From sequence record MZ501103: DNA of 64,000 nt; one strand, given 5' to 3'. Below the pieces are notes generated by a model. That model ran no database searches. It was not told where the DNA came from and worked only from the letters and a program-made list of their open reading frames with translations. Below, piece after piece: positions 6,106 through 64,000 of the stretch (position 1 is the first letter of the stretch; the number at the start of each line of letters is the position of its first letter). The position numbers were made by a program, and so were the translations under genes. Source of the stretch: Escherichia phage SelmaRatti.

Positions 6106-6114
6106 TCTGCCTCC

Positions 6115-6543
6115 TTAAGCAGTTAAACCTGGGATCATATACCCGAAACGGCGAAGTTTCTGAATCCCCTCATTCACTTCTTCCGGTGAGTAAGACCAAC
6201 CATAACGTTCATTAACCTGAAAACCAGGAGATTCACTAGTTTTATAGTTAACAACTAGGCGATGCTTAGCAGGCATAAACAGCTTATAGTTTAACGCAAA
6301 AACTAAGCCCATTTCGTCTAACTCTTTCCAGCCCACAATCTCTTCAAGACCATCCTCTACCTGCACAATTAAACCAATACAGGGGGCCTCATCAATATCA
6401 TCCTTAAAAGCAAAGGAGATTTCGTTATTCTCACACCATATTTTCAAAGAGTTAATAGCCTCATTATACAGGCTAGCTGGGAGAGTACGCCAAAAGTTAA
6501 CCAAAATTGGGTTAGCTTCTTTAGAGAATACATTATTGAACAT
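6115..6543 (-). CDS. hypothetical protein (142 aa), tandem paralog of 5713-6105
   Basis: ORF; WKELDEMGLVFALNYKLFMP similar to neighbour. Confidence 0.55.
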   Translation of the reverse strand: MFNNVFSKEANPILVNFWRTLPASLYNEAINSLKIWCENNEISFAFKDDIDEAPCIGLIVQVEDGLEEIVGWKELDEMGLVFALNYKLFMPAKHRLVVNYKTSESPGFQVNERYGWSYSPEEVNEGIQKLRRFGYMIPGLTA

Positions 6544-49629: not shown

Positions 49630-50339
49630 TTAAAGAAGCTGAAAAATTAAAACGTCTCATCCAGTTAGCGCGTGGTGCTACACAAAAGAGTCTTTCACAG
49701 CTAACTGATGAAGAAAAATATGCAGTAATGTTTTTAGGAGATCATTATCCTGCTAAGTGGGATAAGGGTAAGATCAAATATGATCGTGATGCAAAACAAG
49801 TAGTTTGGTCAGGCTCATATGTAGAGGTGAATAAAGCATTAAAGGCTTTAGATCCTGCAGCAAAAGGTTTCTCTTCTAATGCTATTCATATTCTAATTGA
49901 TGAAGATCTCCCAAGATTTAAGGAAGCATCATTTAAAGAAGCATTAGCTAGCGAAGATCTTATTCCTTTCAAACATGGCAAATATGCACATCTTCCTCCA
50001 CTAGAAAAAGAGAAACCAACTCTAGTTAAAGATGAAGTTTATCGTGGGATTGGCACAATGCTAGCGAGTTTGACTGTAGCTCTCCATAAAGATCTAGAGT
50101 TAACGCCCTTAGAAAATGCTGTGCATTTCATGTGCCATAAATATGAGGATACATTTAAAGAACTATGTAAGTCGCTAGGAATGCCAAGTTACACGATATT
50201 AAACTACGCTCCTGAGTATACTAGAGCAGCTCGCGGAACTATGGATTACGATGATACAGGATCAACTGCTTCCTATTTAGCAACTTATATCTACTTCGCA
50301 TCCTTAGGTATCAAACTCAAATCCAAGAAGGAGGAATAA
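49626..50339 (+). CDS. hypothetical protein (237 aa)
   Basis: ORF. Confidence 0.55.
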   Translation: MIKEAEKLKRLIQLARGATQKSLSQLTDEEKYAVMFLGDHYPAKWDKGKIKYDRDAKQVVWSGSYVEVNKALKALDPAAKGFSSNAIHILIDEDLPRFKEASFKEALASEDLIPFKHGKYAHLPPLEKEKPTLVKDEVYRGIGTMLASLTVALHKDLELTPLENAVHFMCHKYEDTFKELCKSLGMPSYTILNYAPEYTRAARGTMDYDDTGSTASYLATYIYFASLGIKLKSKKEE

Positions 50340-50356
50340 AAGTTAACAAAATTTTC

Positions 50357-50386
50357 TTGACAACTCATTGCGGCACATGTTATAAT
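50357..50386 (+). promoter_or_regulatory. sigma70-type promoter (TTGACA-18-TATAAT)
   Basis: TTCTTGACAACTCATTGCGGCACATGTTATAATAATC; no ORF follows. Confidence 0.65.
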
Positions 50387-50393
50387 AATCTCA

Positions 50394-50560
50394 TAGATTA
50401 ACAACTACTCTAGTTGATTAACTCTAGGGGCGATGATTATTACACGAATGTCTCGTATAGCTTGCGGCTGAGCAACAGCGGTATGACGGCATGAGTACTC
50501 ACGTAATTAATCACGCGCCCCCAGGAGAGACTCTCATGAAATTGGGGGTCTCTTTTTCTT
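50394..50560 (+). ncRNA. candidate small non-coding RNA (about 165 nt) bounded by promoter and terminator
   Basis: Strong promoter at 50357-50386 and terminator hairpin AGAGAC...GTCTCT plus TTTTTCTTT at 50525-50560, with no ORF of 20 codons or more between. Confidence 0.45.
50525..50560 (+). terminator. rho-independent terminator
   Basis: GAGAGACTC-loop-GGGGGTCTCT then TTTTTCTTT. Confidence 0.65.
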
Positions 50561-50639
50561 TATATTATTTAAATATTTAAATATTTTTAATGGCAATATC
50601 TGTGTTCAAGATGATACACCGGTTGCCGCTCATCTGCTA

Positions 50640-51300
50640 GGATGGCACAACACTTTCTAGTAGACTCCTAAGTTTCTAGGAAAACTCTCACTTTCTAGGG
50701 CAGTTTCTCTCCAACGTTACATATCCTAGGCCGGTTTTCCTATACAGGGCGGTTATGGGGAGGGCGGTTATTTCTAGAAGACATTTTTTGAAAACATTTT
50801 TCCAGAAATTACTGTCGGATTTGCACCTTGTGTTTCTAGAAATTTATGGTCGGATTTGCACAATCGCCTAAGTTTTTAGGAACATATAATCTCCTGAAAA
50901 TGGCAGCATTATTTCGGGCCGAAGGCCCATGATTGCCTGAGTTTTTAGGGCCACAGAAATTTTCACTTGTCAAGCTATTTTGCCCCATTTTGCTAATAAA
51001 ATTTTACTTTTTCTGCACCTATCTCAAATTAACCCAAATTATCTCAACTCTTCCCCAAAATCCCCGCAAATCGGGTGCCCCGCACCAAACATGCGCCCCT
51101 CTCACAGTTCCCTCAAATTTCTCTCGCTATCTCACCTTCACTACAAACCTATACAATCACACACCATCTCATCGAAGTCACAAAAATTTCATCGGATTCG
51201 CACAGCTCAACACATGTCGGATTTGCACATACTCTAGCTAATTCCACAGGATTCGAACGCAGTTCGTGATTGCTGGAGTTTTTAGGGAGACAGATTCGTC
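50640..51300. repeat. dispersed short repeat family, about 8 copies of (A/G)GTTT(C/T)TAGG
   Basis: Copies near 50646, 50663, 50684, 50774, 50833, 50871, 50942, 51283. Confidence 0.55.
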
Positions 51301-51415
51301 ACTCTCACGAATTTATAAATTTTTTTCGGGTCGGATTTGCACACTACCAAAAATTGTCGGATTTGCACATACATGCCCGCACGTAACACCCGTGGAGCAT
51401 TGTCGGATTTGCACA
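50814..51415. repeat. iteron-like direct repeats, 7 copies of GTCGGATTTGCACA
   Basis: Copies at 50814, 50849, 51192 (variant TCGGATTCGCACA), 51216, 51330, 51356, 51402, all same orientation. Confidence 0.8.
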
Positions 51416-51420
51416 AAAGC

Positions 51421-51438
51421 GCAGGGCAATTGCCCTGC
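51421..51438. repeat. perfect 18-bp palindrome GCAGGGCAATTGCCCTGC
   Basis: Exact reverse-complement symmetry. Confidence 0.8.
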
Positions 51439-51443
51439 TCGCC

Positions 51444-51615
51444 TGAATGCGAATGATAATGAGAATCAATCTCGTTTAAAAAGCTGAATGCGAATGATAA
51501 TGATTCGCATTTAAGAAAGGGAATGAGAACTATTCAAGAAGTGAAATGATTCTCATTTAAAAAGTGGAGTGATTATCGGTTAGCTAGTGAAATGCGAATG
51601 ATAATGATTCGCATT
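51444..51615. repeat. three copies of AATGCGAATGATAATGA, two forming palindromes AATGCGAAT-N7-ATTCGCATT
   Basis: Copies at 51444, 51485, 51591; related half-sites AATGATTCTCATT at 51543. Confidence 0.75.
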
Positions 51616-51648
51616 TAAAAATGGAAGTGAGAAACACTATTATTTAAG

Positions 51649-51730
51649 TTATCCACAGACTTATCAACAGCACGATTTGACTTGACAGAATCCTAGCCAT
51701 TTTGAGGCGTTATTAACAGACTTATCCACA
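51649..51730 (+). promoter_or_regulatory. cluster of DnaA-box-like 9-mers (TTATCCACA x2, TTATCAACA, TTATTAACA)
   Basis: Exact consensus TTATCCACA at 51649 and 51722; one-mismatch boxes at 51661 and 51710. Confidence 0.6.
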
Positions 51731-51738
51731 GCTTATCC

Positions 51739-51758
51739 TACTGTATAAATATACAGTA
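51739..51758. promoter_or_regulatory. LexA-box-like palindrome TACTGTATAAATATACAGTA
   Basis: CTGT-N8-ACAG with AT-rich spacer, matching the SOS-box consensus. Confidence 0.6.
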
Positions 51759-51998
51759 TTCCTATGTAGTGAATAATTCTAATATAGGCCTAAAACGTCC
51801 TGAATCGCATTCTAACGCGTTTAATTTTGGTGGAGGTATTTTAATATGGGGAAATTTGAGGAAGGCCATAAAAGGTGGGGCCAGTAGTTGCGCCCCGTGA
51901 TTATTAGTGGTAGATATATTTTTGCCAATAGCGGCGGATACTGTCGCCACCAGCGGAATCATTCACAGCCTCAACATTACCCGCGAAAATATATAATC

Positions 51999-52343
51999 TC
52001 ATTGTGCCACCTTTCGAAACGCTATTTCAATACTATCCGCAGTGGATTGAATATATGCGCCTTTCATTATCAGGCGCTCGGTGCATATCTTGCGAAAAAT
52101 GTTGATAAAATCATCTTCATTTTCTGCAATTAATGCCTCACCCATAACCTGAACGTCACAAGACCCAAAAGTTAAAAATTGAAACGCTAGTTCACGGGCG
52201 ACAACGGCAGAAATTTTATAATGCGCCTTACCCTCATAAATATTAACCACGCCTTTATAAACTGGTGAAAGCTGATTTAAATAGTTTGCTAATAATGCCG
52301 GACGGCAATTAGCAACAAAACGATTGCCCTCATAAATAACCAT
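51999..52343 (-). CDS. hypothetical protein (114 aa), last gene of the inverted-repeat-flanked module
   Basis: ORF with strong SD GGGAGG. Confidence 0.55.
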   Translation of the reverse strand: MVIYEGNRFVANCRPALLANYLNQLSPVYKGVVNIYEGKAHYKISAVVARELAFQFLTFGSCDVQVMGEALIAENEDDFINIFRKICTERLIMKGAYIQSTADSIEIAFRKVAQ

Positions 52344-52466
52344 TTTATAACCTCCCGATCAGATAGCCTGATAAAAGCATAAAGATACCCAACGAAAGAG
52401 GGTCATTCTTAAATAAGGTGGCGATAAAACCGCCAGCCATTGCAAGGAGAACAACAATAACGCTTT

Positions 52467-52679
52467 TCATAGTACCCCACGAAACGCAGCGTAAAAGGTG
52501 GCAAAATGTTTAACCGTTTCAGCGATCACGTTGCCGCGCTTATCAAATTTTTTCTCGGTAACACGAAAGGCATTTTTGTTACGTGCTACATATTCGATTT
52601 TACAATCTGGACGCTCGAACGTGTTAACATCCACCAGCTTAAAGCCTTTCGAACGTGCAAGAGAAACGTTGCGTATCAT
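52467..52679 (-). CDS. hypothetical basic protein (70 aa)
   Basis: ORF with SD AAGGAG. Confidence 0.5.
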   Translation of the reverse strand: MIRNVSLARSKGFKLVDVNTFERPDCKIEYVARNKNAFRVTEKKFDKRGNVIAETVKHFATFYAAFRGVL

Positions 52680-52681
52680 TT

Positions 52682-52864
52682 TTATTCTCCTTTACTAATC
52701 ATGCAGCCCAGCAGATAAGAAAATACAGCAATGCCAGCGCCAATAGTAACCATTGGTTTTGTATTTACTAAACCGCAATAAGAATCTTGAATACCATAAG
52801 CGGTGGCGAAAAGAGTCAGAATAGCGCCCAAGATACCCGCCAGAATAGCTCGAAAAATAACCAT
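52682..52864 (-). CDS. small two-helix membrane protein (60 aa)
   Basis: MVIFRAILAGILGAILTLFATAYG and VTIGAGIAVFSYLLGCMI hydrophobic helices; SD AGGGGA. Confidence 0.5.
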   Translation of the reverse strand: MVIFRAILAGILGAILTLFATAYGIQDSYCGLVNTKPMVTIGAGIAVFSYLLGCMISKGE

Positions 52865-52913
52865 TTTTATTTCCCCTAGTTAGTGGGTGATACTGTATAT
52901 CCCCCGTTATTAC

Positions 52914-53144
52914 TTACATTAAAATAATTTTTGCAGCTTGTTTTTTGGTGCAATGTTCCGCTTTCAATTCATCCAGCAAAAAACCAGCCGTTGGCTGATC
53001 AATTTGATCATTATCATAAAGCGCCTGAATGGTAGTGTAAGTTTTAGCAATGCCGTATTCTTGCACCATTTCATGAATGATGACGCGGTTAGATACCCAG
53101 CCTTGCGCGGTGAACAGATGACTAGCAGAAGAATAAGCAACCAT
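52914..53144 (-). CDS. hypothetical protein (76 aa)
   Basis: Start set at the Met preceded by SD GGAGG rather than the longer ORF-track start at 53201. Confidence 0.5.
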   Translation of the reverse strand: MVAYSSASHLFTAQGWVSNRVIIHEMVQEYGIAKTYTTIQALYDNDQIDQPTAGFLLDELKAEHCTKKQAAKIILM

Positions 53145-53261
53145 TTTAAGCCTCCAAATTTTTGGGAAAATTTTCAGTCCACCGTTTCGGTGTAAAGGCA
53201 TTATAACAAAAAAGGCCGCCGATTATGGCGACCTTTACAAAACTTTACATTAGGTTAATTA

Positions 53262-54236
53262 TTACTCGCTTTCGCTGTTTTGGGTAAAGGTGGAAATATC
53301 AATACCTTTCACCATTTCATCAATCATTTCAGCGATATTAAAACTTTGCACCATTTCCAGCATTGCCGCCTCCATAGCCGCTCCTGCTACCGCTTTCGCT
53401 TTCGCATTAGTCGGGGCGTACTGGTCAACCGCTACACTCAGCAGGTTAGCGATCACTACACGACCAATCGGCGTATCAATATACCCTTTAATCATAAACG
53501 GTGCTTTTTTAGCCGCTACTTTCGTAATTTGAGTCAGTGCAATTTTACCCGCTTCCAGTTTTGCAGCGTTTACAACAGCAGACTTATTGGCGGCAACGAT
53601 AGAAGATACTTTAGTCATGATATTTCCTTTATTTTCAGTAGTTTGAGTGCTAGAATTTACAGCATATTTTTTCGTGTTGTCAATAGGCTGATTTTCCTCC
53701 TTCCAGAAGGAAAAGCCCGCGCTTTCGATAACCCCATCATATATGTATGGGTATATTTCCGACGGTAGCAAAAAATTGCCATCATCATCAAAGGCCATTA
53801 CAGCCGCCAGACGATAACCGTCACTAATTGACCGATTCCAGCCAACGGATAAATAACTCCAAAATGAATCAAGAAAGTTTTCAACGTCATAAAGGTCCTT
53901 ATCATAAGGCTCATAATTTTCTATCGAAAAAGCTTCTAAGCCCACCCCAGTATCATAGGCTTTTACTGTGCTACCTTTTACAATTATAAAATCAGCATCC
54001 AGCCCCCTACTAGAAAGTAGGTGATTATCTCGATTATATAAAACAAGCGTTGCCCCTTGCTTGTACAGTTGCAAAAAACTACTCATATCATAGGCGTCAT
54101 ATTCATCAAAAAAGTTTTGATGAATAGTTTCAGCCTTGTTAACAAAGTGTTTGATGATGGATGTTCTGCTACCATCCAGCAGGTTACACAGCGAACTTTT
54201 TAAGACGGCTGCGTTATCTGGTTTATATAGCCTCAT
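53262..54236 (-). CDS. hypothetical protein (324 aa) with Ala/Lys-rich amphipathic helical C-terminus
   Basis: SD GGGAGG; C-terminal 130 aa of repeated amphipathic/hydrophobic helices (GRVVIANLLSVAVDQ, AVAGAAMEAAMLEMV). Confidence 0.6.
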   Translation of the reverse strand: MRLYKPDNAAVLKSSLCNLLDGSRTSIIKHFVNKAETIHQNFFDEYDAYDMSSFLQLYKQGATLVLYNRDNHLLSSRGLDADFIIVKGSTVKAYDTGVGLEAFSIENYEPYDKDLYDVENFLDSFWSYLSVGWNRSISDGYRLAAVMAFDDDGNFLLPSEIYPYIYDGVIESAGFSFWKEENQPIDNTKKYAVNSSTQTTENKGNIMTKVSSIVAANKSAVVNAAKLEAGKIALTQITKVAAKKAPFMIKGYIDTPIGRVVIANLLSVAVDQYAPTNAKAKAVAGAAMEAAMLEMVQSFNIAEMIDEMVKGIDISTFTQNSESE

Positions 54237-54351
54237 TTGTTGGCCTCCCTCGTTAATCGGTAGAAGAATGATAATGGTATTTTCTTTCTAGGGCAAGTAT
54301 TATTTTACCTTTTTATTTTCCTTGCCTAACGCCTAGTTTTATGCTAACCGC

Positions 54352-54423
54352 GCAGCGGTGTAATAAAGAGCAAAACACGGCGAAGCCACCAGGCCGACGC
54401 GTCGAGGCTTTACTTTAATATTA
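54352..54423 (-). promoter_or_regulatory. structured 5-prime leader candidate (long imperfect inverted repeat) upstream of the 324-aa gene
   Basis: GCAGCGGTGTAATA pairs with TATTACACCGCAGC across about 45 nt containing the palindrome GACGCGTC. Confidence 0.35.
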
Positions 54424-54497
54424 CACCGCAGCGTTTTGCTCGTTAGAAAGCGATTTAGGCCGCGTAAAATTGATTGCAGTTGTTAACACTACCTTTC

Positions 54498-54517
54498 TAC
54501 CCTGTATATTTATACAG
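54498..54517. promoter_or_regulatory. LexA-box-like palindrome CCCTGTATATTTATACAGTA
   Basis: CTGT-N8-ACAG; reverse complement nearly identical to the box at 51739. Confidence 0.6.
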
Positions 54518-54526
54518 TAGGAAAAC

Positions 54527-54596
54527 CTGTGGATAAGCCCTTATATCACCACCTATTGTGTCAAATCATTTTGTGCTGTGGATAACTTTGTGGATA
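54527..54596 (-). promoter_or_regulatory. cluster of three DnaA-box consensus 9-mers (TGTGGATAA on plus strand)
   Basis: Exact TTATCCACA on minus strand at 54527-54535, 54576-54584, 54588-54596. Confidence 0.65.
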
Positions 54597-54635
54597 ACTT
54601 AAATGATAGTGGTTCTCACTTAAACCGATAGTTTC

Positions 54636-54716
54636 TTATAGTTATTATTATAGTAGTGATTATTTTTATAGTTATTATTTTTATAGTTATTATTTTTATA
54701 GTTATTATTTCTATTT
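54636..54716. repeat. AT-rich tandem repeat, about 4 units of ATAGTTATTATTTTT
   Basis: Head-to-tail units; roughly 90 percent A+T; 40 bp from the DnaA-box cluster. Confidence 0.75.
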
Positions 54717-55453
54717 AATTTATAAGTATATTATATAATATGAAATAGTTAGTTGGCTAATGAGATTTTCCGGGATTAGTAGTCTGCTAATAGTTCAGGC
54801 TGTTACAATCCACCAGCATGATTATCATCCTAGCAATTATTAGTCTGCTATCTTTCTAATACACAACAACAAATAAAAGTCAATTAATTTATTTCATAAA
54901 ATAACTCAATGCCCCTTGATTTTAAAAAGTCAATACCTTTTACAACTATTTTTCAATTTTGCTTTTGTTAAATATTTGTTAAATCGAAAATGAGCCGCCT
55001 AAAACGCCCTAGAAAGCGGTAAAATTTTCAGGTATGCCATTGCATAGCCTACCCTCGTTTATCGTCACCACGAGCTTTTTAGATTTTGTCAAGTAGGGGA
55101 GAGCAAATATAAATGAAAAAATTACTTGCCTATTTGCTTTGTTTTGTGGTATTCGCGCGCCCGTTTCTTTTAATTTTAGGCCGTCACCGCACGCCATCCG
55201 GTGAATCGTGTCTTTACGTTTCTTTACAAAAATAAGGTTGCGCCATTTTCGGGAATCCCCTATTATTTATCACGTAGGGCGGCAATGACGAACTACACGG
55301 CGGGAAGTTTACCGCCGCGCTCTTTAAAAATTGGGTATATCTTAAAGTCTATCGGCGGTAAACTTATCTATTATAAGGAATCGACGATATGAAACAAACT
55401 TTATTAATCACCGGTAAACCAGCCAAAAATTGGATGGCAATACTAGAAAGCTG

Positions 55454-55481
55454 TTGACAATAGCTCAACAATCCGTAAAAT
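55454..55481 (+). promoter_or_regulatory. sigma70 promoter (TTGACA-16-TAAAAT), pre-early operon P1
   Basis: Near-consensus -35 and -10 elements. Confidence 0.6.
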
Positions 55482-55587
55482 ATCGATTCACGCAGTACAA
55501 GAAAGGTAGCCAGCAAGGTTTAGAAATGGTCTGGCGAAATATTATGATTGACTTGAAAGAAAATCATAAAAAACTGCAAAAAATTGT

Positions 55588-55616
55588 TTGACAACCTAGC
55601 CGATAGGCTTTAAGAT
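55588..55616 (+). promoter_or_regulatory. sigma70 promoter (TTGACA-17-TAAGAT), pre-early operon P2
   Basis: Consensus -35 with 17-bp spacer, about 140 bp upstream of first pre-early ORF. Confidence 0.6.
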
Positions 55617-55754
55617 GTACCCCGTAGTAACTGCTCTTTAACGACTTGGAAAACGATAATGTTTAGGCTAACTCCTAGTGGATTTTTTCTTATTATCTGC
55701 TACTTTCTAGCAGATAATGCGGAACAATCCATCAAATAACTTGGAGTTTATACC

Positions 55755-56006
55755 ATGAAAAACGTTATTACCGCGCCTAAAATTGGTCAATCCGTCTTCA
55801 TTCCTTTCGTTACTAAAACGGATGAATTAACCGGAAAAGCCGAACGTATTAAAGGTGCGGCGCTTATGCCGTTCGATACAATCGATGCGGTATACGCTGA
55901 AACGGAACGTAGTAACAACGGAAAAACTATTTATAGCGTTCGGGTTAAATCTGGCGACGCTGTAAAGGTTGTTCAACGTAACGAAAAATGGGAAGCCGTA
56001 GCGTAA
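55755..56006 (+). CDS. hypothetical pre-early protein (83 aa)
   Basis: ORF with conserved TGGAGTT RBS context. Confidence 0.55.
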   Translation: MKNVITAPKIGQSVFIPFVTKTDELTGKAERIKGAALMPFDTIDAVYAETERSNNGKTIYSVRVKSGDAVKVVQRNEKWEAVA

Positions 56007-56100
56007 TAGTGTTACTTTATATTCCTCTGTTTCAGGGGAATATAATAATTAACATTAGGTTAATCTAATCCCTTAAATTAAATTAATTGGAGTTATAATC

Positions 56101-56517
56101 ATGGCTAACGTTAAAACCGAAAAATCTGCAAAATTCGCATGGAATGAAGAAAACACCCAGCAGGCTGTTACCATGTATCAGCAGCTCATCAATGAAAACG
56201 GCTTGGAGTTCGCCAACAGCGACGGCCTGAGAGAGATCGCAAAAGCAGTGGGCGCGGCTTCTCCCGTATCCGTTCGGTCAAAATTGTCCAGAGCGAAAGT
56301 CTATCAAAAAAGCGATAAGCCTCGCAAGGTTGGCGGCGGCAGTTCAATTCGCAAGGCGCACTATGTACGCGTTATTGCAAAACATGCTATTGATTCCGGC
56401 ATTATCAAAGACGCTGACGATTTAGCAAGCCTTGAAATCGCAAAATTGGAAACGCTGGACGCCGTGGCGCAACTATTGGGCGTTGCCGATGAAGTAAAGC
56501 AGGCCGCAGGTGAATAA
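56101..56517 (+). CDS. hypothetical pre-early protein (138 aa)
   Basis: ORF with TGGAGTTATAATC-ATG context. Confidence 0.55.
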   Translation: MANVKTEKSAKFAWNEENTQQAVTMYQQLINENGLEFANSDGLREIAKAVGAASPVSVRSKLSRAKVYQKSDKPRKVGGGSSIRKAHYVRVIAKHAIDSGIIKDADDLASLEIAKLETLDAVAQLLGVADEVKQAAGE

Positions 56518-56574
56518 ATTTAATTAGCTGGGAATATTCCCCGCTATAATTTCCCTTTGACTGGAGTTATTAAA

Positions 56575-56772
56575 ATGATCTTTTACCCCACTGAATCGCT
56601 AATTTTAGGCTTATTTATTATGGCGGCCTCATTATTATTTGCTTATTTTCAAAATGATTTAGATTCGTATTATTTTAAGCGAAAAGCTAAATTGGCAAAG
56701 CGTTTAGGTCTGATTTGTTTTATTGCCGCCATTGCTCTTGGTGTAAGTTCAAGCCTAATGCCTATTAGTTAA
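56575..56772 (+). CDS. small membrane protein (65 aa)
   Basis: ATG 56575 after CTGGAGTT RBS; two TM helices. Confidence 0.5.
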   Translation: MIFYPTESLILGLFIMAASLLFAYFQNDLDSYYFKRKAKLAKRLGLICFIAAIALGVSSSLMPIS

Positions 56773-56869
56773 ATATTGCAAATTATAACGCCACTCATTT
56801 GCGGCGTTATATCTGGCAATATTTGCCAATAACAAACGTTTTTAATCCCTTCAATGGAGTTTTATTACT

Positions 56870-58534
56870 ATGGTTATTTCCGCAGAAAAACAAATCCAGA
56901 TTCTCAACCTTGCCGCTGATTTTAATTTTTATGGTAAACGTCTGCGCGCTACTAAGCTGGAAGTTTGTGACGATATATCAAAAGCTGTTTATGATACGCC
57001 GAAACATTCCACCGCTATTTGTGACTGGCTGGAAGCAAATAAGCCAGCGAAACCGAAAGCGGCAAAAGCTGAAAAGGCGATTAAAAACGATGATCGCCCC
57101 GAAGCGGCTGGGATTGTTTCTAGTACGGTGGAGCAATGGGAAGTAAAACAAGGTAAACGCTTTATTATTACATCGATTCAGAATAATACGTTCCCACATA
57201 AAAACTTTTTAGCCTCGCTTGAACAATATGCCCAGTTTATCGGCGCTGATTTGCTTGTTTCTAAGTATATTTATAATAAAAACGGATTCCAAAATGGAGA
57301 AGGGGCAGACGGTATCAAATATGATTCCGCATTTGATAAATATATCTGCGAGAAAAATGTATTTTTAAACAATCGCCGTTTTGCTTTCATGGCTGAAATT
57401 AATGTTTTGCCAACCGCAGATTATCCGCTTTCTGGATTCGCTGAAACTGCAACGGCTTTAAATATTGAAGGGCTGGCAATTGGTCACGCTAAAATTACCG
57501 CCGAAAGCGTGCCAGCTTTAAAAGGTGGAGTAGTGCGCCGTATGTATTCAACCGGAACGGCAACGTTAAAAAACTACATTCAGCAGAAAGCAGGACAAAA
57601 GGCCGGGGCGCTGCATAATTTCGGGGCGCTTATTGTTGAGTTCGACGACGACGGGGAATTTTTTGTTCGCCAGCTTGAAACGATGGACGAAAGCGGCGTT
57701 TTTTACGATTTGAATATTTACGCCACTCCCACCGGATGCTATGAAACAACGGGGCACGTTTTAGGTTTACAATATGGCGATATTCACGCCGAAAAATTAG
57801 ATGATGATTGTGCCGTTGCGTCATGGGCTGGCGAAAATAGCTTGCTTGATATTTTAAAGCCTAAATATCAGTTTGTGCATGACGTGCATGATTTTACATC
57901 GCGCAATCACCACAACCGCGCGTCTGGTGTATTCCTAGCGAAACAGTATGCAGCCGGACGTGATAAAGTTCTGGATGATCTCATCGACACGGGGCGCGTG
58001 CTGGAATCAATGGAACGCGATTTCTCGCAAACAATCATCGTGGAGTCTAACCATGATCTGGCGCTTTCCCGCTGGCTGGATGATCGTAATGCTAACATTA
58101 AAGACGACCCAGCAAACGCGGAACTATATCACCGCCTTAATGCTGCAATCTATGAAGCTATTGCAGAAAAAGACGACACTTTCAACGTGCTAGATTATGC
58201 GCTGCGCAAGGTTGCAGGCTGTGAATTTAACGCCATTTTCCTTACTACTGATCAATCTTTCAAGATTGCAGGCATTGAATGCGGCGTACACGGTCACAAT
58301 GGCATTAACGGAAGCCGTGGCAATCCGAAACAGTTTAAGAAATTGGGCAAATTAAACACCGGACACACTCACACGGCTAGTATTTACGGCGGCGTATATA
58401 CCGCTGGCGTGGCTGGTTCCCTTGATATGGGTTACAACGTTGGCGCGTCAAGCTGGACGCAAACGCATTTAATTACCTATGCGAACGGCCAGCGCACTTT
58501 GATTGACTTTAAAAACGGCAAATTTTTCGCGTAA
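56870..58534 (+). CDS. A1: A1-like pre-early protein, SbcD/Mre11-like metallophosphoesterase
   Basis: 554 aa; phosphoesterase motifs GDIH, HDVHD, ESNHD, GVHGHNG, GHTHT; position in pre-early operon upstream of dmp. Confidence 0.6.
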   Translation: MVISAEKQIQILNLAADFNFYGKRLRATKLEVCDDISKAVYDTPKHSTAICDWLEANKPAKPKAAKAEKAIKNDDRPEAAGIVSSTVEQWEVKQGKRFIITSIQNNTFPHKNFLASLEQYAQFIGADLLVSKYIYNKNGFQNGEGADGIKYDSAFDKYICEKNVFLNNRRFAFMAEINVLPTADYPLSGFAETATALNIEGLAIGHAKITAESVPALKGGVVRRMYSTGTATLKNYIQQKAGQKAGALHNFGALIVEFDDDGEFFVRQLETMDESGVFYDLNIYATPTGCYETTGHVLGLQYGDIHAEKLDDDCAVASWAGENSLLDILKPKYQFVHDVHDFTSRNHHNRASGVFLAKQYAAGRDKVLDDLIDTGRVLESMERDFSQTIIVESNHDLALSRWLDDRNANIKDDPANAELYHRLNAAIYEAIAEKDDTFNVLDYALRKVAGCEFNAIFLTTDQSFKIAGIECGVHGHNGINGSRGNPKQFKKLGKLNTGHTHTASIYGGVYTAGVAGSLDMGYNVGASSWTQTHLITYANGQRTLIDFKNGKFFA

Positions 58535-59663: not shown

Positions 59664-60398
59664 ATGAATCAAGTTAAAACGAATATTACCCGCAATTTCC
59701 CGCATATTTCCCGCGTCATGATTTGGGACTTAGACGGCACTATCGTTAATTCATTCCATCGCGTAGCGCCTTGCTTTGATGATAACGGGAATCTAGATTT
59801 AAATAAGTATTCCCGCGAAGCCTGCAAACATAATTTAATAATGCAAGATACTTTATTGCCGCTTGTTACATATATGCGCCAGTGCATGAATGACGCAAAT
59901 ACTTTAAACATTATCTGTACAGCTCGACTGATGAGAAAGTCGGACTATTATTATTTGCGTAAACAAGGCTTACGAGGGGGTGTGAATAGTAATATCCGTG
60001 TATTTTCCCGCGATACACTACACAAATATTTTAAAGCTGATAAGGTTAGCGAAATATACCACAGCAAAGACGCAGTATATAAATCTTATTATTTTGAATT
60101 ATTTAAACAGTTATATCCGAACGCTGATTTTACAATGATTGATGATCATAAAGGCGTGCTATCAGCGGCGGCATCATACGGATTTAAAACGCTGGACGCG
60201 CAAGCCGTTAACGATATTCTATCAATCGGCGTGGCATTGATAGGTGAAACCTTTATCGATGAATCTCTTGAGGATGATAATGATTATCAGTTCCTAGCCG
60301 ACCGTCTGCAATTATGTTGGGAAGGTATGACCGAGGAAGAACGCGCAGAATATAGTTGCAGCCCGCAACAATATATTGAGAAACTAAAAGTTGCGTAA
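59664..60398 (+). CDS. dmp: 5-prime-deoxyribonucleotidase, HAD-family (Dmp-like)
   Basis: 244 aa; HAD motif I in VMIWDLDGTIVNS. Confidence 0.7.
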   Translation: MNQVKTNITRNFPHISRVMIWDLDGTIVNSFHRVAPCFDDNGNLDLNKYSREACKHNLIMQDTLLPLVTYMRQCMNDANTLNIICTARLMRKSDYYYLRKQGLRGGVNSNIRVFSRDTLHKYFKADKVSEIYHSKDAVYKSYYFELFKQLYPNADFTMIDDHKGVLSAAASYGFKTLDAQAVNDILSIGVALIGETFIDESLEDDNDYQFLADRLQLCWEGMTEEERAEYSCSPQQYIEKLKVA

Positions 60399-60417
60399 TA
60401 ATTAAAGTTGAAATTGT

Positions 60418-60451
60418 TTCACCCTGCAATTAAAATGGTTGCAGGGTGAAA
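60418..60451. terminator. long hairpin between convergent dmp and HNH genes
   Basis: TCACCCTGCAA-loop-TTGCAGGGTGA. Confidence 0.45.
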
Positions 60452-60573
60452 TAGTTAGCAGGGTAATAGTAACGGGGGTGGCGGTTAGGAGACTAAGTAT
60501 TCTCCCACTAGCCACTGCACCCACCCACGCGTACGTAATCCAAAGAATTTGGTAAAAGTCATTTTAGTGCTAA

Positions 60574-61071
60574 TTAATTATGATTTGCAAACTCGCCGTG
60601 ATAATGCTCCCTGGCTTTTTTAAGCTCTTTTTCAGCCTGCTCAATGGTTTTAAAAGTTCCTACGGTAATTCTATTGCCATTTACACGTAGTTTTGCTTCG
60701 AACTTTTCCTCCCCACGTTTATATACCCCCTTAACTCCGGTAGATTCATTTTTCCATCCCGAAGAGTTTTTGCCATTCTCTGCATTTGTTGCTTTACGCA
60801 GGTTATTCCACCTATTGTTGAAAGGGTCTTGATCTTTATGATCAATGAGAAACTCACTAGGATCTTCTCCTGTCATGTATAGATACGCTACCAGATGGGC
60901 CTTATATAACCCATTACTGCCCATTGATAGGGATATTCCTGAGCTATTTCTACTGCCTGCTGGCTTACCTTTACGACTCCCTGAGTTCCAAGTAAATATA
61001 CCCGTCTCTGGATCATAATCAAATTTCTTCTGGTATTCTGCTAAGGGGAGTAGAGGTTTATGATTTGCCAT
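60574..61071 (-). CDS. HNH homing endonuclease (AP2-like)
   Basis: LIDHKDQDPFNNRWNNLRKATNAEN HNH motif. Confidence 0.7.
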   Translation of the reverse strand: MANHKPLLPLAEYQKKFDYDPETGIFTWNSGSRKGKPAGSRNSSGISLSMGSNGLYKAHLVAYLYMTGEDPSEFLIDHKDQDPFNNRWNNLRKATNAENGKNSSGWKNESTGVKGVYKRGEEKFEAKLRVNGNRITVGTFKTIEQAEKELKKAREHYHGEFANHN

Positions 61072-61255
61072 CTATCTTGAATCTCCTCCGAGAACTTCTT
61101 GAATCATCATTCCACTCCCACTCGAACTCCGCACGTTTCTCGTCAAACTTCCGCTCCCTTTCCGCAGTATATTTACGATGCTTGTTAATAGCCGCAGTCA
61201 TTCCGAAAACTCCCGCGAGTATCCCAATAATAAAAGCAATTATAATACTAAACAT
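61058..61255 (-). CDS. small membrane protein (65 aa)
   Basis: N-terminal TM helix MFSIIIAFIIGILAGVFGMTAAI. Confidence 0.45.
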   Translation of the reverse strand: MFSIIIAFIIGILAGVFGMTAAINKHRKYTAERERKFDEKRAEFEWEWNDDSRSSRRRFKIDGKS

Positions 61256-61442
61256 CTAATTCCCTCTCAATTTGCAGAATACGGGTGCTGTCACAACGTT
61301 GCAGTAGTACTAGCTTTTCTAGAGTAACTTGTTGTTGTTTTACTTGAGCTTCTAGAGTTTTTAAGCGGAGATACACGATACGAGAGACAATGAAGATTGC
61401 CCAGACTAATATTACTATTAGTGTAACTGCCATTTCCATCAT
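61248..61442 (-). CDS. small membrane protein (64 aa)
   Basis: TM helix VTLIVILVWAIFIVS; overlaps neighbours. Confidence 0.45.
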   Translation of the reverse strand: MMEMAVTLIVILVWAIFIVSRIVYLRLKTLEAQVKQQQVTLEKLVLLQRCDSTRILQIERELDV

Positions 61443-61850
61443 TTACGTTTCTCCGTTAATAAAGTTTCAATTCTAGCTAAGTGATTATCTAAGATACATT
61501 GCCCAATAATCACAATCCCTAGCAACGCAATAAGTACCCATTCCATTAAATCCACCCCGCCATAGCTGCTAACCAAAAACCTGCGAAAATAAAGAATAGG
61601 ATAGTTCCGAACCCAAAGCTATTAATCCAGCTATCGTACACTTCTCCACGTCTGCTCTTTCTTTTGTTTGACATATCTTTCATGCTCCTATAAATATGGT
61701 ATTTAAAATATTCTATAATTTGTGCATAACCAACCGTGCCTGTGAACTCCTAAAAGGACTTCTACTTTTCTTACATAGTGGTTTCTGCCAATATACCATC
61801 CAAAAAATAAAAAATTTAGTTTACTTGGATGTCTTTTTGCTTTATACTAA

Positions 61851-62117
61851 TTACAGGTAGTTAGATTGCTCTAGTTTAAATTTACAATCACCATATTTAA
61901 GATCAAACTGACTGAGATCCCACCACCCAAACTTAGTACGGAGCTGTACTACTGGAAAGCGATCTCCCTTAATACGAACTTTTTGAACCTTGAGGCCGTA
62001 ATGTTCCTCTCCCGCACCTCCAAAAGATTTTACAAATCCCGTACAAAATGGTTTGGGGGCAGGTGCACAACCAGATAACATAACTGCGGCAACTAGTGCA
62101 ATTACAAACTTTTTCAT
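61851..62117 (-). CDS. llp: Llp-like lipoprotein (receptor-blocking superinfection-exclusion candidate)
   Basis: 88 aa; signal peptide with lipobox LSGC; divergent from the receptor-binding protein gene. Confidence 0.55.
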   Translation of the reverse strand: MKKFVIALVAAVMLSGCAPAPKPFCTGFVKSFGGAGEEHYGLKVQKVRIKGDRFPVVQLRTKFGWWDLSQFDLKYGDCKFKLEQSNYL

Positions 62118-62202
62118 ATTTATCTCTCCATTTCTATTTTATGAATATATTATAGCAAAGTAGAGAGATAAAAGCAAATACATTTTTATAATAGGAGATT
62201 AT

Positions 62203-63990
62203 ATGGGTTTTTTCGCTGGAAAATATAGTGATGGTAAGACCGTACTATCTTTAAATACTGAATCTGGGGGTGACATTAATGCCCACAAAACTCCTAATGC
62301 CAATACTATATTTCATTCTGATATGCCATTTGTTCTAGTTGAGAGTACGTATGAGAGTGCGTTAAGTAATGCTGGTAATGGGTTCTTTGTATGCCAAATG
62401 CCTTCTGTAATAGCCAATTTAAAGAGTAATGACCCTGGTATGGTTATACTAACCGCTGTTGAGATAAATGGTACACATAGAGCTTTTCTTAATGGTACTC
62501 AATCCCAGGTTGGACAATTTCTTACATTTTTTGAAGATCTCTCTATTGGCAGGGCTGGTGCTGAATTAGGTCTTACGTCAGCTTTTGCATCTGGTAATAG
62601 CTTAGCACATGGTACTTATACTTATAACTCCAGTCTAGGCCATGAAGAGTCAATAGCTAGGCAAGGTACTGGTGGTACTATATCACAGGCTTCTGGGTTT
62701 AACTTATACAGACCAAAAGGGGCGTACGCCGGTGAAGCTATAGGCAGAGCATGGACTTTAGCAGGATTTCCAGCAGGAGCGTCTACAGTACCTATAGACG
62801 GTGGTAATGCTGACTACTGGCACCCTAATTGGCAAGCCCCTATAGGAGCCGCTTATAGAGGACATAATTGGTTTTACGTTTGTAACTCTAATATACGTGG
62901 TTATGTAGGTAAAAAGGGCACAGTACCAGCTAATGTTAACTTATTGTATCAATCTCCTACTTACCCTGATAAGGTTTATATATGTAAAGGTTCAACATCT
63001 AACCTAGCAGCACAGGCCGCTAAGAAAGTGTATGTGCAGGATTGGTATAACATAACTCCTACCAAAGTTATTTGGTATGTACTTAATTTGAGGTATTCTA
63101 ACGGTAATATGGGTGTATCTGGTAACCCATTTACCGGATCAGATATACTTATAACTCCATCTAATTTTACTATAAAAGGGGTTAGTCTACCAAATACTGG
63201 ATATAAGTTTATCAACCAAAATGCTTTTGGTAATTTAGGCTATAGACCAGATATGGAGTACATTGGAAATAATGCAGCGTACACTGGAGCCTTTGGAGAC
63301 ACCACTGCGCGTTGTGAAATTGTAGGATCTAGTAACGGATCTTTATGGTCTCCTGTAGATTATGGAGGGGCTAAGTCTCAGATTAGTATTTACAAGTTCG
63401 GAGCTGGTAAGCAATGGTACGTAAACTCAAGTAATAACACTATAGGTAATGAGCATGGAGCTGTGTGGAGTCCTAGTACTGTACCTTTAAGACTATTTCC
63501 TAATAATGTTGCTAGTACCTACGTTGGTGATGATATAACCCCAGCGTATCCTGGAGCAGGTAACTACTATACGGCTCTAGCTACCATAGGACTAGGATTA
63601 CCTAATGCTAACGCAACGGTAATATTAACTACGGAAGTTATTATGGGTAATATTAATACGGCTGGAGGAGCCATACGCACATACGGTGGTACTGCTTGGC
63701 AAGTACAAGGAAGAAGACAGCATAGTTACACGGAAGGTGATGGAATATTCCATCAAATATTAACCTTACCTCCTGGATACTTAGTCCCTTATCACTCCAC
63801 TACTGCATACAGTTATACTCAAACTTGGGCAAGTAGACCTGATGAGTTAACATTTAGAAGAAACGGATATATTTATACTATTAAAAATCTAGGAAATGGT
63901 AATGCTGAATTGGGCGTAATTATTCATGCTGCTGAGGCTGCAGCTATTTTCCTACCTAGATTAAGAGTAACAGTTCAACGCCTTACCTAA
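62203..63990 (+). CDS. oad: receptor-binding tail protein, pb5/Oad-like
   Basis: 595 aa; N-terminus MGFFAGKYSDGKTVLSLNTESGGD; Gly/Asn/Tyr-rich; adjacent divergent lipoprotein. Confidence 0.55.
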   Translation: MGFFAGKYSDGKTVLSLNTESGGDINAHKTPNANTIFHSDMPFVLVESTYESALSNAGNGFFVCQMPSVIANLKSNDPGMVILTAVEINGTHRAFLNGTQSQVGQFLTFFEDLSIGRAGAELGLTSAFASGNSLAHGTYTYNSSLGHEESIARQGTGGTISQASGFNLYRPKGAYAGEAIGRAWTLAGFPAGASTVPIDGGNADYWHPNWQAPIGAAYRGHNWFYVCNSNIRGYVGKKGTVPANVNLLYQSPTYPDKVYICKGSTSNLAAQAAKKVYVQDWYNITPTKVIWYVLNLRYSNGNMGVSGNPFTGSDILITPSNFTIKGVSLPNTGYKFINQNAFGNLGYRPDMEYIGNNAAYTGAFGDTTARCEIVGSSNGSLWSPVDYGGAKSQISIYKFGAGKQWYVNSSNNTIGNEHGAVWSPSTVPLRLFPNNVASTYVGDDITPAYPGAGNYYTALATIGLGLPNANATVILTTEVIMGNINTAGGAIRTYGGTAWQVQGRRQHSYTEGDGIFHQILTLPPGYLVPYHSTTAYSYTQTWASRPDELTFRRNGYIYTIKNLGNGNAELGVIIHAAEAAAIFLPRLRVTVQRLT

Positions 63991-64000
63991 AGGAGGAAAT

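What the first reader, a model, noticed from the sequence alone, without database searches (positions are those of the whole stretch)
54527..54720. Origin-like architecture: three consensus DnaA boxes beside an AT-rich tandem repeat
Seen in sequence: three exact TTATCCACA boxes on the minus strand (54527-54596) lie 40 bp from about four tandem units of ATAGTTATTATTTTT (54636-54716, roughly 90 percent A+T). Established knowledge: DnaA-box clusters next to AT-rich repeats are the hallmark of oriC-type origins. Inference: a DnaA-dependent origin, a DnaA-titrating sink, or a DnaA-regulated promoter region for the divergent pre-early and module operons.
Basis: partly seen in the sequence, partly recalled or inferred. 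Interest (0 to 1): 0.6.

Follow-up and report, generated by a model that had tools for sequence, protein, structure and literature searches.

The report
Known T5 DnaA-box repeat, not origin
The three DnaA boxes are real, but they belong to an already described, conserved non-coding repeat in the first-injected DNA of T5-like phages, not to a replication origin, and the AT-rich repeat beside them is a variable minisatellite.

Summary
Three exact TTATCCACA boxes lie at 54528-54597 (minus strand). A 15-bp AT-rich tandem array (5.3 copies, 90% A+T) starts 38 bp away.

The window is a T5-like phage. The locus lies in the terminal-repeat pre-early region, between the divergent gene-011 and 007-A2-A1-dmp operons. 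The boxes are T5's annotated "IRC-spacer-IRD" element (Repeat Region 2). Its inverted partner is at 51627-51758, in the injection-stop region. DnaA boxes there have been published since 1987 and were compared across 25 phages in 2020. Their function is still untested.

The origin reading is not supported:
- The AT array varies from 1 to about 9 units among relatives, and Serratia phage Slocum lacks it.
- The partner copy has no AT array.
- There is no GATC in the region, and box spacing is 3 bp.
- Published mapping puts T5 origins mid-genome.

New here: each copy carries a near-consensus LexA-type palindrome at a fixed distance from the boxes. This composite recurs across Demerecviridae, including Vibrio phages whose A1 is about 32% identical. 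That favours binding sites for conserved host proteins, acting in cis on the first-transferred DNA.

The parts
54500..54519 (.). LexA/SOS-box-type palindrome CCCTGTATATTTATACAGTA (core CTGT-N8-ACAG), Region-2 copy. Equivalent to the palindrome inside T5 inverted repeat D.
   Evidence: 3 mismatches to TACTGTATATATATACAGTA, with 0.01 hits expected in the window. Nearly invariant in 30 Region-2 copies.
54528..54536 (-). DnaA box TTATCCACA. It is the fusion product of the usual box pair A/B; a 12-bp deletion specific to this phage removed one box.
   Evidence: The alignment shows a 12-bp gap only in the window row. Box offsets are 26/75/87 here against 26/38/87/99 in 50 of 57 copies.
54537..54576 (.). 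40-bp spacer. Its length is fixed across relatives but its sequence is only moderately conserved. It contains TGTCAA.
   Evidence: spacer identity between the two copy types is 0.54, with almost no indels.
54577..54585 (-). DnaA box C, TTATCCACA.
54589..54597 (-). DnaA box D, TTATCCACA, 3 bp from box C (12-bp period). It is the best conserved box.
   Evidence: Box D identity is 0.95-0.96 in all comparisons.
54598..54619 (.). Conserved 22-bp tail CTTAAATGATAGTGGTTCTCAC (end of T5 inverted repeat C). It is not explained by DnaA or LexA. It is related to the palindromic repeats next to the partner copy.
   Evidence: In the anchor-free sample most tail columns are at least 95% conserved. Tail identity is 0.86-0.97. 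Weak Fur-consensus-like hit at 54604-54618.
54636..54714 (.). AT-rich 15-bp tandem array (unit TATAGTTATTATTTT, 5.3 copies). A copy-number-variable minisatellite, not part of the conserved module.
   Evidence: 1 to about 9 units and 50-221 bp among relatives. No array in Slocum.
54715..54761 (.). Semi-conserved AT-rich block ending in TAGTTGGCTAAT. It carries promoter-like hexamers on the minus strand (TAGCCA, 18 bp, TATAAT; 54759 to 54730). Unverified.
   Evidence: 10 of 12 match. The block and the 18-bp spacing are retained in T5, Bf23, HASG4 and others. No experimental promoter is reported here.
51627..51758 (.). Inverted partner copy (T5 IRD'-spacer-IRC', Repeat Region 3, the injection-stop region). 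Parts: tail 51627-51648; boxes TTATCCACA 51649-51657, TTATCAACA 51661-51669, TTATTAACA 51710-51718, TTATCCACA 51722-51730 (all plus strand); LexA-type palindrome TACTGTATAAATATACAGTA 51739-51758.
   Evidence: (inverted repeats I1, I2, I4). 77% identity to the Region-2 copy over 132 bp.
54268..54296 (-). Probable P11-type pre-early promoter for the gene-011 homologue (TTGCCC, 17 bp, TATCAT). Context only; about 200 bp from the module.
   Evidence: Position matches T5P4 in AY587007. P11 was detected by primer extension in T5 and is described as experimentally characterised.
53262..54236 (-). Homologue of T5 pre-early gene 011 (DUF7566), first gene of the leftward operon. Context only.
   Evidence: PF24450, E = 5e-108; 63% identity to T5 ORF011.
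55755..58534 (+). Rightward pre-early operon: 007 homologue (DUF7177, 55755-56006), A2 (56101-56517), A1 (56870-58534). dmp follows at 59664-60398. Context only.

Best explanation
The locus is this phage's copy of a known, conserved, non-coding cis element of T5-like phages. In T5 it is called 'IRC-spacer-IRD' and lies in Repeat Region 2 of the terminal repeat, between the two divergent pre-early operons. It is one of two inverted copies. The other copy is at window 51627-51758, in the injection-stop region.

Each copy is a fixed-geometry module with these parts: a LexA-type palindrome, two DnaA boxes 3 bp apart, a 40-bp spacer, two more DnaA boxes, and a 22-bp conserved tail. This phage lost one box through a 12-bp deletion.

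Most likely mechanism (inferred, not shown): the module is a landing pad for conserved host DNA-binding proteins. These are DnaA on the boxes and probably LexA on the palindrome. It would act in cis on the first-step-transfer DNA, organising, anchoring or pausing it during two-step genome delivery, and possibly insulating transcription.

It is not a replication origin. The AT-rich 15-mer array is an expanded minisatellite next to the module, not a functional partner of it.

Confidence by step: identity of the element about 0.95; not an origin about 0.85; host-protein platform acting on first-step-transfer DNA about 0.45.
For: Identity:
- The window is a T5-like phage.
- The locus aligns to T5's annotated IRC, IRD and IRB' repeats.
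- Its inverted partner is present.
- Davison's preprint describes exactly this pair of 131-bp inverted repeats, with paired DnaA boxes 3 bp apart, in 25 T5-like phages.

Selection on the sites:
- In 58 unique copies collected through the A1 protein, so with no DNA-anchor bias, box offsets from the palindrome are identical in 50 of 57 copies.
- The arms are 0.86-0.96 identical between the two copy types. The spacer is 0.54 and the flanks 0.40-0.44.

Depth of conservation:
- Two oppositely oriented clusters of exact DnaA boxes, each beside a LexA-type palindrome, recur in Klebsiella, Serratia, Pectobacterium, Proteus and Vibrio phages.
- They are far above Markov expectation there: 2-5 exact boxes against 0.1-0.2, and 1-2 palindromes against less than 0.01.
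- In the Vibrio phages A1 is about 32% identical and A2 is 37%, and the surrounding DNA no longer aligns.
- Exact retention of motifs that match invariant host-protein specificities favours host factors over a fast-evolving phage protein.

Against an origin:
- The AT array has 1 to about 9 units in relatives and is absent in Slocum.
- The partner copy has no array.
- There is no GATC in 54237-55754 or 50340-51998, against 5-6 expected in each.
- Origins are reported mid-genome, and replication genes are on second-step DNA. Multiple internal origins are reported, and T5 has its own candidate initiator helicase, D2.

Link to DNA transfer: the partner copy lies next to the first-step-transfer shear point. 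A minor first-step-transfer band of about 5.85 kb, close to this element in T5, was reported by Rhoades, as cited.
Against: - No binding or genetic test exists. Papers from 2023 and 2026 still call the role unproven.
- Conservation extends beyond what DnaA and LexA explain: the GTC linkers, the GGATAA stretch, TGTCAA in the spacer, and the 22-bp tail.
- About a third of the variation within the boxes is at position 6, giving TTATCAACA and TTATTAACA, which lie outside the stringent DnaA consensus.
- The box spacing of 3 bp differs from the 2-bp arrays of oriC (recalled, not tested here).
- It is unclear how cytoplasmic proteins bound to DNA that has already entered could stop further entry.
- The two copies are in opposite orientations, which constrains any orientation-dependent mechanism.
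- The 12-bp deletion here, and deletions in T5 itself, show that not every box in the Region-2 copy is essential.
Confidence: 0.6

Rival explanations
1. Transcriptional control or insulation. DnaA and/or LexA bound at the module would regulate or insulate the divergent pre-early promoters. At the partner copy they would act as a roadblock that stops read-through from the gene 011-017 operon into the injection-stop region.
For: The module lies between divergent operons. A promoter-like element with conserved spacing (54759 to 54730, minus strand) would transcribe through the module. The partner copy lies just downstream of the leftward operon and its terminators. DnaA-box complexes are known to block RNA polymerase in an orientation-dependent way (established knowledge, recalled). 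Pre-early transcription is shut off in a regulated way.
Against: The nearest experimentally known promoter (P11) has its -35 element about 200 bp from the palindrome and about 230 bp from the nearest box. No sigma-70 promoter with a good match overlaps the boxes or the palindrome consistently across relatives. Pre-early shut-off is attributed to A1.
Confidence: 0.2
2. Phage-protein target. The module would be recognised by phage pre-early proteins such as A2, a DNA-binding protein, or an A1-A2 complex. It could be the site where second-step transfer is released or where the DNA is cut, as in Davison's restriction-site model. The resemblance to host-factor sites would then be incidental.
For: Conserved positions extend beyond the DnaA and LexA motifs, into the linkers and the tail. 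A1 and A2 are required for second-step transfer. The module is found only in T5-like phages, not in E. coli genomes or plasmids.
Against: A2 and A1 have diverged to 37-41% and about 32% identity in Vibrio and Proteus phages, yet the 9-mers and the palindrome are retained exactly. Co-evolving phage protein-site pairs usually drift. The motifs match two independent host consensus sequences at 9 of 9 and 17-19 of 20 positions.
Confidence: 0.12
3. One reading: a DnaA-dependent, oriC-like replication origin in which the boxes recruit DnaA and the AT-rich 15-mer array is the unwinding element.
For: Clustered consensus boxes lie 38 bp from the most AT-rich 100 bp of the window. Strong outer boxes paired with weaker inner boxes recall origin design. 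Electron microscopy of T5 reported multiple origins.
Against: The AT array is hypervariable, reduced to about one unit in T5 and Epseptimavirus, and absent in Slocum, while the boxes are conserved. The partner copy has no array. There is no GATC in the region. The 15-bp period is not in helical phase. Origins are reported near the genome centre, and replication genes are not expressed during first-step transfer. T5 has its own origin-binding-type helicase, D2. The AT array lies on the opposite side of the TGTGGATAA-oriented boxes compared with R1 and the unwinding element in E. coli oriC (my recollection of the oriC sequence).
Confidence: 0.05
4. DnaA-titrating sink, datA-like, that depletes host DnaA.
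For: Several high-affinity boxes per genome: about 7-8 per terminal repeat, with two repeats.
Against: There are far too few sites to titrate the cellular DnaA pool at the first-step-transfer stage. The host chromosome is degraded within minutes anyway. The fixed geometry and the co-conserved palindrome and tail are not needed for titration.
Confidence: 0.03

Closest known systems
T5 'IRC-spacer-IRD' (Repeat Region 2) and its partner 'IRD'-spacer-IRC'' (Repeat Region 3, injection-stop signal region). Annotated in AY587007, analysed by Davison (bioRxiv 10.1101/866236), DnaA boxes first noted in 1987.
   Same: Same genomic position: in the terminal repeat, between the gene-011 operon and the 007-A2-A1-dmp operon. 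It aligns directly to the T5 element. It has an inverted partner about 2.9 kb away, DnaA boxes in pairs 3 bp apart, and a fixed spacer.
   Different: This phage's copy has a 12-bp deletion that leaves 3 boxes rather than 4, and an unusually expanded AT-rich 15-mer array beside it. The published descriptions I could read do not mention that the palindrome matches the LexA box, and they do not include Vibrio phages.
E. coli oriC (DnaA boxes plus AT-rich 13-mer unwinding element)
   Same: Clustered TTATCCACA boxes, including consensus and weaker variants, lie close to very AT-rich repeated DNA.
   Different: The AT repeat is not conserved among relatives. There is no GATC. Box spacing is 3 bp and all four boxes of a copy point the same way. 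No IHF consensus is present. A second copy has no AT region. No evidence of initiation exists, and the literature places origins elsewhere.
Iteron-type plasmid and phage origins (P1 oriR, F oriS, pSC101)
   Same: DnaA boxes sit in tandem next to short direct repeats and AT-rich DNA.
   Different: The repeats are 15 bp (or about 30-bp double units) with 1 to about 9 copies and are not in helical phase. No Rep-type initiator gene is adjacent; the neighbours are DUF7566, DUF7177, A2 and A1.
Non-origin DnaA-box clusters (datA, DARS, dnaA and mioC promoters)
   Same: A small cluster of high-affinity boxes outside an origin, which could assemble a DnaA oligomer for a non-initiation purpose.
   Different: It is phage-borne and duplicated in inverted orientation. 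It is coupled at a fixed distance to a LexA-type palindrome and a conserved tail. No IHF site is present. Its function is unknown.
SOS operators (LexA boxes, consensus TACTG(TA)5CAGTA)
   Same: The palindrome next to the boxes matches the 20-bp consensus at 19 of 20 positions in the partner copy and 17 of 20 here. From memory, that is closer than many chromosomal operators.
   Different: It does not demonstrably overlap a promoter. It occurs in a strictly virulent phage. LexA binding is untested.

Membership tests
T5-type IRC-spacer-IRD element (Repeat Region 2 of the first-step-transfer DNA) | Located in the terminal repeat between the divergent pre-early operons, upstream of the gene-011 homologue | tested here: met
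T5-type IRC-spacer-IRD element (Repeat Region 2 of the first-step-transfer DNA) | Sequence homology to the T5 element, and an inverted partner in the injection-stop region | tested here: met
   aligns to T5 6022-6156 and 9332-9463; inverted arms at 51625-51691/54555-54621 and 51721-51771/54487-54537.
T5-type IRC-spacer-IRD element (Repeat Region 2 of the first-step-transfer DNA) | Two pairs of DnaA or DnaA-like boxes, each pair separated by 3 bp, with a fixed spacer between the pairs | tested here: met
   The pair at 54577/54589 is intact and the 40-bp spacer is intact. The other pair is reduced to one box by a 12-bp deletion. Davison reports similar losses in the Region-2 copy of T5 itself.
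oriC-type DnaA-dependent origin | Cluster of DnaA boxes | tested here: met
oriC-type DnaA-dependent origin | Adjacent AT-rich unwinding element conserved as a partner of the boxes | tested here: not met
   The array has 1 to about 9 units and spans 50-221 bp among relatives. Slocum has none, and the partner copy has none.
oriC-type DnaA-dependent origin | GATC (Dam/SeqA) clustering and an IHF site, as in enterobacterial oriC | tested here: not met
   Zero GATC in 54237-55754 against 5 expected. No WATCARNNNNTTR match in 54400-54800.
oriC-type DnaA-dependent origin | Replication actually initiates there and depends on DnaA | not testable with these tools
   Literature only: origins are reported near the genome centre, with multiple internal origins. 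The 1976 electron-microscopy paper was not available.
Iteron-type origin (P1 oriR, F oriS, pSC101) | Phased iterons of about 19-22 bp and a cognate Rep gene nearby | tested here: not met
   15-bp units with variable copy number. Neighbouring genes are DUF7566, DUF7177, A2 and A1, with no Rep-family hit.
LexA (SOS) operator | CTGT-N8-ACAG palindrome with an AT-rich centre, close to TACTG(TA)5CAGTA | tested here: met
   Conserved in all relatives examined.
LexA (SOS) operator | Bound by LexA and overlapping a regulated promoter | not testable with these tools
   No conserved promoter overlaps the palindrome. Binding needs an experiment.
DnaA-regulated promoter | Boxes overlapping or immediately flanking the core promoter | tested here: inconclusive
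   P11 is more than 200 bp away. A promoter-like site at 54759-54730 is unverified.

The most novel reading that the evidence does not exclude
The conserved core of the T5-family injection-stop elements is a composite operator for two host proteins, LexA and DnaA, placed on the first DNA to enter the cell. LexA occupancy, followed by LexA loss once phage-induced host-DNA destruction triggers RecA activation, together with DnaA binding, would act as a checkpoint. That checkpoint would time either the release of the paused genome (second-step transfer) or the shut-off of pre-early genes. The LexA-box identity of the palindrome, and the conservation of the composite out to Vibrio phages, are not mentioned in any paper I could search.
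Probability: 0.12. Interest if true: 0.75.

Novelty: already known. Interest (0 to 1): 0.35.

Why it matters
How T5 stops and restarts genome delivery after 8% of the DNA has entered is a question more than 60 years old. The repeat elements carrying these DnaA boxes are the leading cis-acting candidates, but nobody has tested them.

For this scan the value is mainly corrective. The locus should not be catalogued as a phage origin.

A secondary value is a sharper, testable description of the element. It is a fixed-geometry composite of a LexA-type palindrome and DnaA boxes, retained across Demerecviridae that infect Gammaproteobacteria. It suggests simple experiments with dnaA and lexA host mutants, footprinting, and box-mutant phages.

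Tried and rejected
- Rfam scan of 50300-56200 at a permissive threshold. Only sub-threshold chance hits, so no known RNA family.
- Search for the module in E. coli genomes and in plasmids. No match, so it was not borrowed from a host or plasmid origin.
- Six metagenomic contigs with A1 homologues at 41-48% identity. They have no box clusters or palindromes. A1 also occurs outside T5-like phages, for example inside the replication module of a Rhizobium Autographiviridae phage. These contigs are therefore not informative negatives.
- IHF consensus in both copies. None found.
- Sequence-only promoter assignment around the AT array. This was ambiguous: a conserved minus-strand promoter-like site exists, but no experimental promoter is reported there.
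- Fur-box reading of the palindromes beside the partner copy. It is suggestive at 2 mismatches or fewer (5 hits against 0.83 expected), but not significant at 3 mismatches, and it rests on a recalled consensus. I kept it as a side note only.
- The 1976 electron-microscopy paper on T5 origins and Davison's 2015 review could not be retrieved. Origin positions therefore rest on secondary citation.
- A literature search for host dnaA or dnaB dependence of T5 found nothing usable. My recollection that T5 grows independently of host dna genes other than gyrase is unverified here.

Full report
OBSERVATION
Exact TTATCCACA occurs on the minus strand at 54528-54536, 54577-54585 and 54589-54597. The stated coordinates are one base off. 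The 64-kb window has only five exact boxes against 0.72 expected, and no shuffle out of 100 reaches five. All five lie in two clusters, the second at 51649-51730 on the plus strand. A 15-bp tandem repeat occupies 54636-54714, with 5.3 copies and 87% matches. It starts 38 bp after the last box and is 90% A+T. Window 54642-54741 is the most AT-rich 100 bp in the window. No open reading frame of note crosses the region.

CONTEXT
The window is a T5-like phage. Best hits are Salmonella and Escherichia Tequintavirus at 87-89% identity. It is oriented opposite to the standard T5 map. The locus lies in the terminal repeat, which is the first-step-transfer (FST), pre-early DNA.
- To the left, on the minus strand, is the homologue of T5 gene 011 (53262-54236; DUF7566; 63% identical to T5 ORF011).
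- To the right, on the plus strand, are the 007 homologue, A2, A1 and dmp.
- T5's own record annotates inverted repeats C, D and B' and putative pre-early promoters at the equivalent position.

WHAT THE BOXES BELONG TO
Window 54487-54621 is an inverted copy of window 51625-51771 (77% identity over 132 bp). This is the pair that Davison calls IRC-spacer-IRD (Repeat Region 2) and IRD'-spacer-IRC' (Repeat Region 3, the candidate injection-stop signal).
- He reports two pairs of DnaA or DnaA-like boxes per copy, 3 bp apart, conserved in 25 T5-like phages.
- He proposes that membrane-bound DnaA holds the DNA at the stop.
- He considers an origin unlikely, because T5 origins map near the genome centre and replication genes are on second-step DNA.
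- Papers from 2023 and 2026 repeat that DnaA boxes mark this region and that their role is untested.
The core of the finding is therefore already in the literature.

ANATOMY AND CONSERVATION
I collected copies from GenBank relatives and IMG/VR contigs in two ways. The first used a DNA anchor outside the motifs. The second, free of any DNA-anchor bias, used the A1 protein. Read in the window's plus orientation for the Region-2 copy, the module is:
- a palindrome, (T/C)(A/C)CTGTATATTTATACAGTA;
- GGATAAsC;
- box A, then GTC, then box B;
- a 40-bp spacer containing TGTCAA;
- box C, a 3-bp linker, then box D;
- the tail CTTAAATGATAGTGnTTCTCAC.

Box offsets from the palindrome are identical (26/38/87/99) in 50 of 57 copies. 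The window's Region-2 copy has a private 12-bp deletion that fuses boxes A and B, which is why it shows three boxes rather than four.

Between the two copy types the arms are 0.86-0.96 identical. The spacer is 0.54 and the flanks are 0.40-0.44. The copies are therefore not being homogenised. Specific sites and their spacing are under selection.

Outer boxes A and D are mostly consensus. Inner boxes B and C of the Region-3 copy are TTATTAACA or TTATCAACA. Variation within the 9-mers concentrates at positions 5, 6 and 3. Positions 5 and 3 are the degenerate positions of the DnaA consensus. Position 6 is not.

THE AT-RICH ARRAY
Between conserved anchors, this segment ranges from 50 to 221 bp and holds 1 to about 9 units.
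- T5 and its closest relatives have about one degenerate unit.
- Epseptimavirus has one unit.
- Bf23 has three.
- One lineage has about nine.
- Some lineages have double units of about 30 bp.
- Serratia phage Slocum has no AT array beside its module.
- The partner copy in this window has none.
The array is a hypervariable minisatellite that happens to be expanded in this phage. What is semi-conserved is a single unit plus an AT-rich block ending in TAGTTGGCTAAT. That block carries a promoter-like site on the minus strand with conserved 18-bp spacing. No experimental promoter is reported there. The characterised pre-early promoters are P_H22 and P_D/E20, near hdi, and P11, upstream of gene 011. 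A P11-like site lies at 54296-54268, about 200 bp from the module.

ORIGIN HYPOTHESIS
One defining feature is met: clustered boxes. The others that I could test are not met.
- The AT element is not a conserved partner of the boxes.
- There is no GATC at all in 54237-55754 or in 50340-51998, against 5-6 expected in each and 3.1 per kb window-wide.
- There is no IHF consensus.
- Box spacing is 3 bp and all boxes of a copy point the same way.
- There are no phased iterons and no Rep gene nearby.
- The module exists in a second, inverted copy at the point where DNA transfer stops.
- Published mapping and the timing of replication-gene expression also argue against it.
I put the origin reading at about 5%. 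A titration sink is less likely still. A purely promoter-proximal regulatory role is weakened by the distances to known promoters.

A FEATURE NOT IN THE PAPERS I COULD SEARCH
The palindrome in each copy is a near-consensus LexA (SOS) box.
- 51739-51758, TACTGTATAAATATACAGTA, has one mismatch to TACTG(TA)5CAGTA.
- 54500-54519 has three mismatches.
- Together they are 2 hits against 0.01 expected.
- The palindrome is almost invariant across all copies.
- Davison's preprint never mentions LexA or SOS. Two full-text searches found no paper that links LexA to T5-like phages. Subscription-only papers, including the 1987 and 2005 primary descriptions, could not be checked.

The composite of a LexA-type palindrome with DnaA boxes 12 bp apart, in two oppositely oriented copies in the pre-early region, recurs in more distant relatives:
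- Klebsiella phage Kpn02 and Serratia phage Slocum;
- Pectobacterium phage My1 and Proteus phage 1;
- Vibrio phages pVp-1 and Cody.
In these loci there are 2-5 exact boxes against 0.1-0.2 expected, and 1-2 palindromes against less than 0.01. In the Vibrio phages A1 is about 32% identical and A2 is 37%. The intervening DNA and the spacing differ, and Vibrio phages were not in Davison's set. Exact retention of two motifs that match invariant host-protein specificities, while the phage's own DNA-binding proteins diverge, favours host-factor sites. This is an inference.

MECHANISM
Shown:
- the identity of the element;
- its duplication in inverted orientation;
- the fixed geometry;
- site-level selection;
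- family-wide conservation;
- the non-conservation of the AT array.

Inferred: DnaA binds the boxes, with strong outer sites nucleating the weaker inner sites, and LexA probably binds the palindrome. Together they would form a nucleoprotein complex on first-step-transfer DNA that acts in cis on two-step delivery, or on the organisation or insulation of that DNA. Two published observations tie the module to DNA transfer. The partner copy sits just inside the shear point. A minor first-step-transfer fragment was reported close to the Region-2 position.

Unexplained:
- the equally conserved tail, linkers and TGTCAA;
- how proteins bound inside the cell could arrest entry;
- why two inverted copies are needed.

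VERDICT
The origin interpretation is not supported. The AT repeat is incidental. There is moderate residual interest, because the element's function is an open problem and the LexA-type component gives a new, cheap experimental handle.

Noticed in passing
window 51739-51758 and 54500-54519; also L087 about 515 and 6002, L088 about 2207, L089 2659 and 6610, L090 5340 and 8878, L091 6730 and 9513, L092 586: A near-consensus LexA/SOS-box palindrome (CTGTATA[AT][AT]TATACAG) sits at a fixed distance from the DnaA boxes in both copies. It is conserved from T5-like coliphages to Vibrio phages. No searchable paper on T5 mentions it.
   Followed up: yes
window 51454-51468, 51495-51509, 51599-51613; 60275-60289: The palindromic repeats beside the Region-3 copy (AATGCGAATGATAATGATTCGCATT) are 2 mismatches from the Fur-box 7-1-7 consensus TGATAATnATTATCA. 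A perfect TGATAATGATTATCA lies inside the dmp gene. There are 5 hits with 2 mismatches or fewer, against 0.83 expected. The module's conserved tail belongs to the same sequence family. The consensus is recalled from memory, so this is only a curiosity. FhuA, the receptor of T5 itself, is Fur-regulated.
   Followed up: partly
window 50814-51415: About seven copies of GTCGGATTTGCACA (T5 'direct repeat D') straddle the end of the terminal repeat. Each contains ATTTGCACA, one mismatch from the relaxed DnaA consensus TTWTNCACA.
   Followed up: no
window 54237-55754 and 50340-51998: Both non-coding repeat regions contain no GATC at all, against 5-6 expected in each from base composition and 3.1 per kb across the window. 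The pre-early coding parts are also somewhat depleted.
   Followed up: partly
window 54528-54536: A 12-bp deletion private to this phage fuses two DnaA boxes of the Region-2 copy into one. All other Tequintavirus and Epseptimavirus copies examined keep the 12 bp.
   Followed up: yes
window 54351-54445: A long imperfect hairpin (arms 54351-54365/54419-54433 and 54364-54382/54427-54445) lies between the P11-like promoter and the module. It contains a small terminator-like stem on the minus strand at 54391-54378. It partly overlaps the equivalent of T5 inverted repeat B'.
   Followed up: no
window 54750-54761, 54780-54791, about 54838-54850: The motif TAGT(T/C)(G/T)GCTAAT repeats just right of the AT array. 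It is also present in T5 and, in a related form, in Slocum. It could be a -35-like element or a protein site.
   Followed up: no
window 55333-55356 / 55599-55622 and 55454-55616: A 24-nt inverted repeat (92% complementary), equivalent to T5 IRA/IRA', brackets the two best sigma-70 matches of the region: TTGACA-16-TAAAAT at 55454-55481 and TTGACA-17-TAAGAT at 55588-55616. These probably correspond to the strong pre-early promoters near hdi.
   Followed up: no
window 60399-64000: Sequence continues for 3.6 kb beyond dmp, which is where a T5 genome should end. The source record is therefore probably a circularly permuted or repeat-collapsed assembly with a single copy of the terminal repeat.
   Followed up: no
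L091 6620-6760, L092 480-620: In Vibrio phages the Region-3-like module is more compact. A second LexA-type half-palindrome (ATGTATAAATATACAGT) is fused directly to a third DnaA box.
   Followed up: partly
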